From Deltaproteobacteria bacterium (GTDB lineage: Bacteria; Myxococcota; JADLHZ01), in assembly GCA_020848545.1 (NCBI GenBank), contig JADLHZ010000104.1, positions 72,306 to 136,305 of the forward strand: a stretch of DNA of 64,000 nucleotides. The letters are read 5' to 3'. Both the position numbers and the translations under genes were made by a program. The notes below the pieces were generated by a model that worked only from the letters and a program-made list of their open reading frames with translations, did not search any database and was not told the origin of the DNA. Positions 26,872 to 27,447 of the stretch are shown one piece after another. Every line of letters begins with the position of its first letter. Within the stretch, counting starts at the first letter, position 1.

Positions 26872-27447
26872 TCAGTCGACGATGGTGGCGAAGGTATAGA
26901 AGAGCTCGGACGCGAGCTTCGGCGCGGTGTTTTTTGTGCCCACGAAGATGCGGCCGTTGAGCGCCTGGCCGAGCTCGTCCTGCGCGTCCTTTGGCCGATA
27001 GCGATTGAGCATCAGGGTGAGGACCCGGCTGCGCCCCGCCGTCACGATCGTCGCGGTGCCGTCGGCGGCCACCTGGGTGACGACGCCGACGTGGGAGATC
27101 GTGTCGACGGCGCCGTCTTGGTCGTAGTCGCGGGTCTTTCCGAAGAAGCACAGGTCGCCGACGCTCGGGCGCCGGCGCAGGTGCAGCTTTCCATTGAGCG
27201 CGGCGTATTGATAGACGACGTCGACGCCGCTGCGTTCGATGTCGAGCTGCGCCGGCGCCGCGAAGAGGTCGATGCCAAACTGCAGAAAGGCCGCGCGAAC
27301 GACGCCGACGCTGTCGAAGCGGAAGCGCCGGCCGCCGCCGCTCAAGTCATGCTTGCCGACGAGGGAGTCGGCGTAGGCGGCGATCGCCTGTGCGCGCGGC
27401 TGCGCTGGCGGGGTCGCGAGGAGCAGCAGAGAGAGAACGGCGGTCAT
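26872..27447 (-). CDS. NlpC/P60-like secreted cell-wall peptidase domain protein
   Basis: Signal peptide MTAVLSLLLLATPPAQ; GDLCFFG...HVGVV resembles the NlpC/P60 GDL.FF...HVG.Y block; the canonical FDCSG Cys position reads FDSVG. Confidence 0.5.
   Translation of the reverse strand: MTAVLSLLLLATPPAQPRAQAIAAYADSLVGKHDLSGGGRRFRFDSVGVVRAAFLQFGIDLFAAPAQLDIERSGVDVVYQYAALNGKLHLRRRPSVGDLCFFGKTRDYDQDGAVDTISHVGVVTQVAADGTATIVTAGRSRVLTLMLNRYRPKDAQDELGQALNGRIFVGTKNTAPKLASELFYTFATIVD

What the first reader, a model, noticed from the sequence alone, without database searches (positions are those of the whole stretch)
26872..27447. NlpC/P60-like secreted peptidase at the upstream edge of the cluster with a non-canonical residue at the expected catalytic Cys position
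A signal-peptide protein carries GDLCFFG...HVGVV, matching the second half of the NlpC/P60 fold, but the usual FDCSG nucleophile context reads FDSVG. It could be a dedicated peptidoglycan remodelling enzyme for apparatus insertion (as FlgJ/EtgA are), possibly with an altered catalytic arrangement.
Basis: partly seen in the sequence, partly recalled or inferred. Interest (0 to 1): 0.4.

Follow-up and report, generated by a model that had tools for sequence, protein, structure and literature searches.

The report
Degenerate NlpC/P60 cell-wall peptidase homologue
This gene encodes an exported relative of bacterial cell-wall-cutting enzymes that has lost two of its three catalytic residues, so it is probably a non-cutting binding or regulatory protein, and its position next to a type III secretion gene cluster is found only in close relatives.

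Summary
Window 26872-27447 (minus strand) encodes a 191-aa protein with a hydrophobic N-terminus and an NlpC/P60-CHAP fold (AF2 pLDDT 90.5; best PDB fold matches are CHAP and NlpC/P60 domains). Ser46 (FDSVG) sits exactly where the catalytic Cys (DCSG) belongs.

The parent family consists of Myxococcota "CHAP/C40 peptidase" lipoproteins. Of 274 aligned sequences, 245 have a canonical Cys46-His119-His136 triad.

The window protein belongs to a monophyletic, long-stemmed clade of 13 sequences with Ser-His-Thr. The third His is therefore also lost, one lineage has Gln in place of His119, and no Cys is conserved anywhere in the clade. It keeps the scaffold, the GD motif and a DxDxDG-like loop.

I read it as a pseudo-endopeptidase with a binding or regulatory role (confidence about 0.55). 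A Ser-His hydrolase remains possible (about 0.2).

The proposed role in secretion-apparatus insertion is weakly supported. Direct adjacency to the T3SS-like cluster occurs only in the crown subclade. Deeper clade members stay beside a divergent DsbH-like thioredoxin gene, and are either unlinked to T3SS genes or separated from them.

Modest interest; a new variant of a known kind.

The parts
26872..27447 (-). Gene for the 191-aa NlpC/P60-CHAP-fold protein with a degenerate Ser46-His119-Thr136 'triad'. An alternative TTG start at 27486 would give 204 aa.
   Evidence: ORF and sequence; GC3 0.87; Pfam near-threshold CHAP and NLPC_P60 hits; 100% identical to an NCBI MAG protein named 'C40 family peptidase'; AF2 pLDDT 90.5; Foldseek top hits are CHAP and NlpC/P60 domains.
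27385..27447 (-). Residues 1-21, a putative Sec signal peptide (MTAVLSLLLLATPPAQPRAQA) with no basic n-region and no lipobox Cys.
   Evidence: Best 10-residue window has mean Kyte-Doolittle hydropathy 2.5. The parent family has a near-invariant lipobox Cys. Deeper clade members have lipobox-like N-termini (LQAC, GSGC, LGGC). No signal-peptide predictor was available.
27310..27312 (-). Codon AGC = Ser46, at the position of the catalytic Cys (DSVG in place of DC[ST]G).
   Evidence: Alignment to the DCSG motif of 3pvq, 3npf and 8er5. The selection of the 245 parent sequences required Cys here by definition; all 12 SHT-clade sequences have Ser. The codon is AGY in most clade loci and TCG in the P0010 lineage.
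27091..27093 (-). Codon CAC = His119, the retained catalytic His (SHVG).
   Evidence: Aligned to the catalytic His of 3pvq/3npf. His in 11 of 12 clade members and Gln in P0010.
27040..27042 (-). Codon ACG = Thr136, at the position of the third triad residue (His in the parent family).
   Evidence: His in 125 of 155 representatives; the selection of the 245 parent sequences required His here by definition. Thr in 12 of 12 clade members.
27154..27159 (-). G97-D98, the 'GD' motif characteristic of NlpC/P60-like proteins. It is retained.
   Evidence: G97 is invariant and D98 nearly invariant across 127 sequences. The motif is described in PMC10318531.
27103..27135 (-). Residues 105-115 (TRDYDQDGAVD), a DxDxDG-like putative Ca2+-binding loop that ends three residues before His119. 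It is family-wide and retained in the clade.
   Evidence: T105, D107, D111, G112 and D115 are invariant across 127 sequences. Two of 7 members give weak TSP_3 hits. Ca2+ binding is inferred from the motif only.
26849..26870 (-). Perfect 9-bp hairpin (GGCGAGACA-GAAU-UGUCUCGCC) starting 2 nt after the stop codon, within the 76-bp gap before the next gene. A weak terminator-like site follows at 26839-26820.
   Evidence: There is no U-tract directly after the strong hairpin. Terminator-like sites in the region are no more frequent than in shuffles (2 found against 1.9 expected).
26436..26795 (-). Conserved 119-aa protein of unknown function, the first gene of the T3SS-like cluster proper.
   Evidence: It follows the NlpC-like gene in the window, L001, L002 and L003. 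It also heads the cluster in L017 and L019/L020, where no NlpC-like gene is adjacent.
27518..29551 (+). Divergently transcribed Thioredox_DsbH (DUF255) gene, the most persistent neighbour of the clade's gene.
   Evidence: Pfam E=3.6e-74. The same divergent arrangement occurs in L001, L002/L018, the 115-kb contig, L014/L015 and L017.

Best explanation
The gene encodes an exported member of the NlpC/P60-CHAP (papain-like, C40/C51) superfamily. It descends from a Myxococcota family of roughly 240-aa lipoproteins with a canonical Cys-His-His triad, which are presumably peptidoglycan DL-endopeptidases or amidases. In the ancestor of a small clade the nucleophile Cys became Ser and the His-orienting third residue became Thr. 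The crown members, including this one, also lost the lipobox. The fold, the GD motif, the DxDxDG-like loop and much of the groove are kept under purifying selection. The most likely outcome is a pseudo-enzyme: a periplasmic protein that still docks to a peptidoglycan stem peptide or a related ligand but does not cleave it. It would act as a binding, scaffolding or regulatory factor, in the way non-catalytic RipD and degenerate LytM factors do. Shown: fold, homology, residue replacements, clade monophyly and conservation, and gene neighbourhoods. Inferred: export, lack of catalysis, ligand binding, and any link to the adjacent T3SS-like genes.
For: Homology and fold.

Triad: the parent family is C-H-H in 123 of 155 representatives and in 245 of 274 sequences, and the clade is S-H-T in 12 of 12.

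One lineage, P0010, seen on three contigs from three samples, also has His119 replaced by Gln while the rest of the protein stays conserved.

Replacing the third residue His with Thr removes the group that orients and polarises the catalytic His. This is the opposite of what a weaker Ser nucleophile would need (inference from Ser-His-Asp enzymology).

Two parent near-invariant Arg residues (R144, R168) and G141 are lost.

The clade is monophyletic with a long stem branch (0.077 against a median internal branch of 0.016), and its sister P0122 is also degenerate (P-Q-G).

Sporadic degenerate triads occur elsewhere in the family, so loss of catalysis recurs.

Precedent: RipD is a non-catalytic, peptidoglycan-binding NlpC/P60 protein with Ala-Ser-Glu in place of the triad (PMC12067865).
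Against: Ser46 is strictly conserved (12 of 12) across sequences down to about 40% identity, and it uses both Ser codon families (AGY and TCG). His119 is kept in 11 of 12. This degree of conservation at a former active site would also fit a working Ser-His dyad.

The conservation of Ser46 may instead be structural. In this fold the nucleophile caps the N-terminus of the main helix (helix 46-55 in the model), and Ser is a good N-cap.

Conserved clade-specific gains (Y106R, L149R, T118S) suggest a remodelled site rather than a decaying one.

No biochemical data exist, and the model coordinates could not be inspected to measure the Ser-His geometry.
Confidence: 0.55

Rival explanations
1. It is an active hydrolase that uses Ser46 as nucleophile with His119 as general base: a Ser-His dyad in a papain-like fold, a rare natural Cys-to-Ser switch. 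It may be suited to an oxidising periplasm, where a thiol nucleophile is vulnerable.
For: Ser46 is invariant in the clade, with both Ser codon families used. His119 is retained in 11 of 12 members. D45, G48, the GD motif and the loop preceding His119 are all kept. A published survey notes that conserved Ser in place of Cys occurs in several papain-like families and is poorly explored (PMC10318531).
Against: The third triad residue is Thr, which cannot polarise His. The P0010 lineage has Gln at 119. Parent-family Arg residues likely to be used in substrate binding are lost. Engineered Cys-to-Ser variants of cysteine peptidases are generally inactive (general knowledge, not tested here).
Confidence: 0.2
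2. The protein is a dedicated component of the adjacent T3SS-like apparatus that opens or organises the peptidoglycan for assembly, functionally analogous to EtgA or FlgJ.
For: It lies immediately upstream of, and on the same strand as, the first gene of the cluster in the window, L001, L002 and L003 and on the 115-kb contig. The gap is only 15 bp in L001 and L003. The cluster encodes SctJ, a FliG-like protein, SctL, SctN, SctO and SctP, plus two Gly-rich putative filament proteins.
Against: The loci showing adjacency are fairly close relatives (56-70% identity) in which the flanking non-T3SS block is equally syntenic. Adjacency may therefore reflect shared ancestry rather than function. Deeper clade members lack T3SS neighbours (L010, L011/12, L014-16). 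In L017 two opposite-strand genes intervene and the gene stays with the DsbH-like gene. In L019/L020 the T3SS cluster edge has no such gene, while the clade member recovered from the same samples lies on another contig. Known T3SS-associated wall enzymes are lytic transglycosylases or muramidases, not NlpC/P60 proteins (general knowledge), and an SLT-domain gene lies at 10664-11638. The catalytic residues are degenerate.
Confidence: 0.12
3. The fold has been recruited to a function unrelated to the cell wall. Examples would be binding a protein or lipid ligand, or working with the thioredoxin-fold proteins that persistently flank it.
For: The most stable neighbour is the divergent DsbH-like gene. 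In P0008-type loci a thioredoxin-like lipoprotein gene abuts the stop codon of the clade's gene. Clade-specific conserved switches (Y106R, L149R) suggest a new ligand.
Against: The DsbH-like protein has no signal peptide at its N-terminus as translated, so it would sit in a different compartment. Neighbourhood conservation may be inherited synteny. No positive evidence for any specific ligand.
Confidence: 0.1

Closest known systems
Myxococcota 'CHAP domain-containing protein / C40 family peptidase' lipoproteins (uncharacterised family; e.g. Hyalangium, Archangium, Stigmatella; P0156-P0274)
   Same: Similarity extends over the full length (profile positions about 17-188, 30-38% identity), including the C-terminal extension with N164 and the F183-x-x-F motif, the GD motif and the DxDxDG-like loop.
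   Different: These proteins have Cys46-His119-His136 and a lipobox Cys. The window protein has Ser-His-Thr and no lipobox, and has lost R144 and R168. The one parent locus examined (L008) sits in a housekeeping context.
RipD (Rv1566c) of Mycobacterium tuberculosis, a non-catalytic peptidoglycan-binding NlpC/P60 protein
   Same: An NlpC/P60 domain whose triad has been replaced while the fold is kept. It serves as a model for a binding rather than cutting role (PMC12067865).
   Different: It arose independently, and RipD did not appear in the sequence or fold searches here. RipD has Ala-Ser-Glu, so both Cys and His are replaced. The window protein keeps His and has Ser at the Cys position.
YkfC-like gamma-D-glutamyl-L-diamino acid endopeptidases / dipeptidyl-peptidase VI (PDB 3pvq, 3npf, 3h41, 2evr, 2hbw)
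   Same: Best sequence-profile and fold matches among solved structures. The DCSG and SHVG motifs align to DSVG and SHVG.
   Different: These are active Cys-His-His enzymes with extra SH3b domains. Similarity is only weak (E about 1e-3, TM 0.4-0.46).
T3SS- and flagellum-associated wall enzymes (EtgA, IagB, IpgF; FlgJ)
   Same: Small exported wall-enzyme-like proteins encoded beside secretion-apparatus genes (general knowledge).
   Different: Those are lytic transglycosylases or muramidases of a different fold and are catalytically competent. The window protein has a papain-like fold and a degenerate triad, and its linkage to T3SS genes is not conserved.

Membership tests
NlpC/P60-CHAP superfamily (Pfam clan CL0125; PF00877 / PF05257) | Significant match to the family HMM (gathering threshold) | tested here: inconclusive
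   CHAP 25.0 bits against a cut-off of 26, and NLPC_P60 22.7 against 23. All 7 close homologues hit both models at E<=1, and two have a precomputed PF00877 hit. Transitive link: E down to about 1e-30 to relatives that carry the Cys-His-His triad, and the CHAP-annotated family members retrieved with the family profile align with it at 29-38% identity.
NlpC/P60-CHAP superfamily | Papain-like alpha+beta fold: nucleophile at the N-terminus of a helix, His at the start of a beta-strand | tested here: met
   AF2 model has pLDDT 90.5 and pTM 0.85. The helix spans 46-55 and the strands span 99-102, 119-126, 132-137 and 142-147. Foldseek top hits are CHAP (5t1q) and NlpC/P60 (8er5, 2evr, 2hbw, 6biq) with probability 0.84-1.0, but E is about 0.01 or weaker and TM 0.33-0.46.
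NlpC/P60-CHAP superfamily | Catalytic Cys in the D-C-[ST]-G motif | tested here: not met
   Ser46 in DSVG. No Cys is conserved in the clade.
NlpC/P60-CHAP superfamily | Catalytic His | tested here: met
   His119 aligns to the catalytic His of 3pvq/3npf. It is His in 11 of 12 clade members.
NlpC/P60-CHAP superfamily | Third polar triad residue (His in NlpC/P60; Asp/Glu/Asn in CHAP) | tested here: not met
   Thr136, where 125 of 155 representatives have His.
NlpC/P60-CHAP superfamily | 'GD' motif on beta-strand 1 (PMC10318531) | tested here: met
   G97-D98; G97 is invariant and D98 nearly invariant in A4.
NlpC/P60-CHAP superfamily | Peptidoglycan stem-peptide hydrolase activity | not testable with these tools
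   Requires a zymogram or muropeptide analysis.
T3SS-specialised peptidoglycan-remodelling enzymes (EtgA/IagB/IpgF/FlgJ type) | Conserved genetic linkage with the secretion apparatus across relatives | tested here: not met
   Adjacent only in the crown subclade (window, L001, L002, L003 and the 115-kb contig). Absent or separated in L010, L011/12, L014-16 and L017, and the T3SS cluster edge has no such gene in L019/L020.
T3SS-specialised peptidoglycan-remodelling enzymes | Lytic transglycosylase or muramidase fold with an intact catalytic residue | tested here: not met
   The fold is papain-like, not SLT or lysozyme-like, and the triad is degenerate.
Non-catalytic NlpC/P60 pseudo-enzymes (RipD-like, functional class) | NlpC/P60 fold with replaced catalytic residues, plus demonstrated peptidoglycan binding without hydrolysis | tested here: inconclusive
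   The fold and the replaced residues are shown. Binding and lack of activity cannot be tested here. There is no specific sequence relationship to RipD.

The most novel reading that the evidence does not exclude
The Ser-His-Thr clade is either a naturally evolved serine-nucleophile hydrolase in the NlpC/P60 fold, or a catalytically dead wall-docking factor. In the window's lineage it would have been recruited as the first gene of an operon for a filament-bearing Myxococcota type III secretion system, helping the apparatus to cross or anchor in the peptidoglycan.
Probability: 0.12. Interest if true: 0.6.

Novelty: new variant of a known kind. Interest (0 to 1): 0.3.

Why it matters
Automated annotation calls this protein a "C40 family peptidase", but it lacks the nucleophile and the third triad residue, so predicting activity from the name would be wrong. 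It adds an independent, well-defined case (Ser-His-Thr, 13 sequences, monophyletic) to the short list of NlpC/P60 domains that have lost their catalytic residues. It is also a clean natural test of what a conserved Cys-to-Ser change does in a papain-like fold. For the secretion cluster, the analysis moves the real upstream edge to the small 119-aa gene at 26436-26795. It also argues against counting this gene as a core component of the apparatus.

Tried and rejected
1. Direct searches with the single sequence were uninformative. NCBIfam gave no hit, and phmmer against PDB gave only chance hits.

2. The first AF2 run, with 7 sequences, gave pLDDT 51.6 and was discarded. A 127-sequence alignment gave pLDDT 90.5.

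3. Model coordinates are not exposed in the sandbox, so Ser46-His119 distances could not be measured.

4. I looked for a catalytic Cys elsewhere. The only Cys in the mature protein (Cys100, in GDLCFFG) is Val in 7 of 12 clade members and in 87% of the parent family, so it was rejected.

5. I looked for a second, canonical paralogue in the window by six-frame hmmsearch and found none.

6. Scans of genome and metagenome collections for clade loci gave few hits (1 and 5). Context came mainly from exact-protein look-ups.

7. The terminator and promoter scan of 26300-27700 was no better than shuffles. The hairpin after the stop codon is real, but its function is unknown.

8. The first literature searches for Cys-to-Ser NlpC/P60 variants were unproductive. 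Later ones gave the RipD precedent and a survey of papain-like families.

9. dN/dS was not attempted, because the available DNA pairs are 40-70% identical at the protein level, so synonymous sites would be saturated.

Full report
**1. What is at the coordinates**

Window 26872-27447 on the minus strand is an ORF of 191 codons starting at an ATG. An in-frame TTG at 27486 would add 13 residues. Its third-position GC is 0.87 in a 65% GC window, as for the neighbouring real genes.

The protein is identical to an NCBI MAG protein ("Deltaproteobacteria bacterium", 183-kb contig) named "C40 family peptidase".

The N-terminus, MTAVLSLLLLATPPAQPRAQA, has a hydrophobic core (mean hydropathy 2.5 over ten residues) and an AxA-type site. 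It has no basic n-region and no lipobox. Export is plausible but not verified.

**2. Family assignment**

Pfam gives CHAP at 25.0 bits (cut-off 26) and NLPC_P60 at 22.7 bits (cut-off 23), both just under threshold. NCBIfam gives nothing. All seven close homologues behave the same way.

A profile of these seven aligns to the YkfC-like dipeptidyl-peptidase VI structures 3pvq and 3npf, and to 8er5. Ser46 falls on the Cys of their DCSG motif, and His119 on the His of their SHVG motif.

An exhaustive profile search of 1.84 billion cluster representatives found 992 relatives, 442 of them at E<=1e-10. The matches extend over nearly the whole protein, profile positions about 17-188.

A search with a family profile retrieved proteins named by their sources as CHAP domain-containing protein, C40 family peptidase or DL-endopeptidase. 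Where an organism is given they come from Myxococcota (Hyalangium, Archangium, Stigmatella, Myxococcaceae MAGs). They carry precomputed PF05257 and often PF00877.

With a 127-sequence alignment, AlphaFold2 gave pLDDT 90.5 and pTM 0.85. A 7-sequence run had given only 51.6.

The best Foldseek matches in the PDB are a CHAP domain (5t1q) and NlpC/P60 domains (8er5, 2evr, 2hbw, 6biq). Probabilities are 0.84-1.0, but E-values are modest (about 0.01 or weaker) and TM-scores are 0.33-0.46. The fold is therefore papain-like NlpC/P60-CHAP with family-specific additions.

**3. The catalytic residues**

I aligned all retrieved sequences to the family profile. Of 274 sequences, 245 have Cys46-His119-His136, the canonical NlpC/P60 triad.

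The window protein and its nearest relatives have Ser46-His119-Thr136. These relatives are P0002-P0010 plus the proteins encoded in L002, L003 and L017. One lineage, P0010, was found on three contigs from three samples and has Ser-Gln-Thr.

Two of the three catalytic residues are thus replaced, not one. No Cys is conserved in the clade: Cys100 of GDLCFFG is Val in 7 of 12 members and in 87% of the parent family.

In a neighbour-joining tree of 156 sequences, the 13 S-x-T sequences form an exclusive clade. Its stem branch is 0.077 against a median internal branch of 0.016. Its sister, P0122, is also degenerate (Pro-Gln-Gly).

The clade keeps most family-invariant scaffold positions:
- D45 and G48;
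- the GD motif at 97-98;
- F101 and F102;
- T105, D107, D111, G112 and D115;
- G121, V123 and T131;
- N148, N164 and F183.

It shows conserved switches at C46S, Y106R, T118S, H136T and L149R. It loses the parent's near-invariant G141, R144 and R168.

Ser46 is encoded by AGC or AGT in most loci and by TCG in the P0010 lineage. Ser has therefore been maintained, or acquired twice, across the two codon families.

**4. How to read this**

Three observations argue for a pseudo-enzyme:
- The third residue changed from His to Thr, which cannot orient or polarise His119. This is the opposite of what a poorer Ser nucleophile would need.
- One lineage has lost His119 while keeping the rest of the protein.
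- Arg residues that are near-invariant in the parent family are lost.

Degenerate triads also crop up sporadically elsewhere in the family. Non-catalytic NlpC/P60 domains are already known: RipD has Ala-Ser-Glu and still binds peptidoglycan (PMC12067865).

Against this, the strict conservation of Ser46 and the near-strict conservation of His119 are what a Ser-His dyad enzyme would show. A recent survey notes that conserved Ser in place of Cys recurs in papain-like families and is poorly understood (PMC10318531).

Ser conservation also has a structural explanation. The nucleophile position caps the N-terminus of helix 46-55, where Ser is favoured.

I put the non-catalytic binding or regulatory protein at about 0.55 and the active Ser-His hydrolase at about 0.2.

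**5. Context and the proposed secretion-system role**

Downstream on the same strand lie the following genes:
- 26436-26795: a conserved 119-aa protein;
- 25571-26344 and 24975-25508: two Gly-rich paralogues with an identical C-terminal segment;
- 24420-24863: a TPR protein;
- 23782-24303: an unknown gene;
- 22970-23749: a sigma-70 family gene;
- 22328-22834: an unknown gene;
- 21382-22242: SctJ/YscJ;
- 20303-21322: a FliG-like protein;
- about 19596-20330: SctL/FliH;
- 18183-19592: the SctN ATPase;
- 17614-18114: SctO;
- 16688-17563: an SctP/FliK-like protein.

The gene does therefore sit at the upstream edge of a T3SS-like cluster.

The same order (NlpC-like gene, 119-aa gene, Gly-rich gene) is seen in L001, L002/L018 and L003 and on a 115-kb contig. 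The gap between the first two genes is only 15 bp in L001 and L003, which makes co-transcription likely there. It is 76 bp in the window.

The window gap holds a perfect 9-bp hairpin two nucleotides after the stop codon. A weak terminator-like site follows it, which is no better than chance.

These loci are all fairly close relatives (56-70% identity), and the block on the other side is equally syntenic. That block comprises a sigma-54 activator, an unknown gene, a CarboxypepD_reg protein and a divergent DsbH-like thioredoxin gene.

Deeper clade members tell a different story:
- **L014-L016 (P0008):** the same upstream block and the divergent DsbH-like gene, then the S-H-T gene. A thioredoxin-like lipoprotein gene abuts its stop codon, followed by a kinase gene and polA. 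There are no T3SS genes.
- **L011/L012 (P0010) and L010 (P0009):** no T3SS genes.
- **L017:** the S-H-T lipoprotein gene stays next to the DsbH-like gene. It is separated from the T3SS cluster by TPR and trypsin-like genes on the opposite strand, and the cluster starts with the 119-aa gene.
- **L019/L020:** the T3SS cluster edge is preceded by trypsin-like and PemK genes with no NlpC-like gene. These contigs come from the same samples as the P0010 contigs.

The single canonical parent-family locus examined lies in a housekeeping context.

So the persistent partner of this gene is the DsbH-like block, and the true edge of the T3SS cluster is the 119-aa gene. Immediate adjacency is a feature of the crown subclade only. 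A lineage-specific recruitment cannot be excluded, but a dedicated, catalytically active insertion enzyme is not supported (about 0.12).

**6. Comparison with what is known**

The protein works most like a degenerate wall-hydrolase homologue, such as RipD among NlpC/P60 proteins. By analogy from general knowledge, it also resembles the degenerate LytM factors that regulate amidases.

It is a member of the NlpC/P60-CHAP superfamily by descent and fold. It fails two of the superfamily's defining catalytic features, so it should not be filed as a C40 peptidase in the enzymatic sense.

It is unlike EtgA, IagB, IpgF and FlgJ in fold, in catalytic competence and in conservation of linkage.

**7. Verdict**

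This is a new, well-delimited variant (Ser-His-Thr) of a known kind, namely NlpC/P60 domains with lost catalytic residues.

Interest is modest (0.3). It would rise if the protein proved to be either a genuine serine-nucleophile NlpC/P60 enzyme or a wall-docking factor for a Myxococcota T3SS.

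Noticed in passing
window 25571-26344 (-) and 24975-25508 (-): Two Gly-rich paralogous proteins (257 and 177 aa) share an identical C-terminal segment of about 60 residues ending ...SFNLQYLQLQSQMQHENRSYTAISNIMKTKHDTVKNSISNVR. The same C-terminus is conserved in L002. The only family hint is a sub-threshold HrpA_pilin match (E=0.09, 14 bits), with no PDB match. If these are needle or pilus subunits, that would be notable, because the M. xanthus T3SS* is described as needle-less (PMC10849154).
   Followed up: partly
window 26436-26795 (-): A highly conserved 119-aa protein with no Pfam family heads the T3SS-like cluster in every locus seen: the window, L001, L002, L003, L017 and L019/L020. 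Twenty-six homologues were found at 59-100% identity. It marks the real upstream edge of the cluster.
   Followed up: partly
window 27103-27135 (-), residues 105-115 of the protein: T-x-D-x-[ND]-x-D-G-x-x-D is invariant or nearly so across the whole Myxococcota family and ends three residues before the catalytic His. It matches the DxDxDG type of Ca2+-binding loop (recalled from the literature, not tested). Two homologues give weak TSP_3 hits.
   Followed up: no
window 27518-29551 (+); L014 10648-11070; L004 315-752: Thioredoxin-fold genes persistently flank the Ser-His-Thr clade. A divergent DsbH/DUF255 gene occurs in at least six loci. In P0008-type loci a small thioredoxin-like lipoprotein with a WCEPC motif starts at the clade gene's stop codon. 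It is not known why a Cys-less derivative of a Cys peptidase keeps thioredoxin-fold neighbours.
   Followed up: partly
window 10664-11638 (+): An SLT-domain lytic transglycosylase gene (Pfam E=2.7e-22) lies about 5 kb beyond the far end of the T3SS-like cluster, after putA. This is the enzyme class normally associated with T3SS assembly. Its linkage to the cluster was not examined.
   Followed up: no
window 16688-26795 (-): The T3SS-like cluster in the window has SctJ, a FliG-like protein, SctL, SctN, SctO and an SctP/FliK-like protein, plus an internal sigma-70 family gene (22970-23749). No export-gate (SctRSTUV) or secretin matches turned up among the ORFs scanned with Pfam, which did not cover the whole 64-kb window. 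In other loci extra genes (He_PIG, POTRA, START) are inserted before sctJ.
   Followed up: partly
window 26849-26870 (-): A perfect 9-bp stem with a 4-nt loop (GGCGAGACA GAAU UGUCUCGCC) starts two nucleotides after the stop codon of the NlpC-like gene and has no U-tract. L001 and L003 have only 15 bp between the two genes, so the element is not universal.
   Followed up: partly
P0014, P0021, P0065 (representatives): Longer family members (461-659 aa) match the family profile in two separate stretches. In each, the stretch aligned here carries a degenerate triad (S-S-Y, N-Y-M, S-S-V). This suggests repeated evolution of pseudo-domains within the family.
   Followed up: no
window 41793-43091 (-): A DUF222 + HNH endonuclease gene, a type often associated with mobile elements, lies among regulatory genes. 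It is unrelated to the finding.
   Followed up: no
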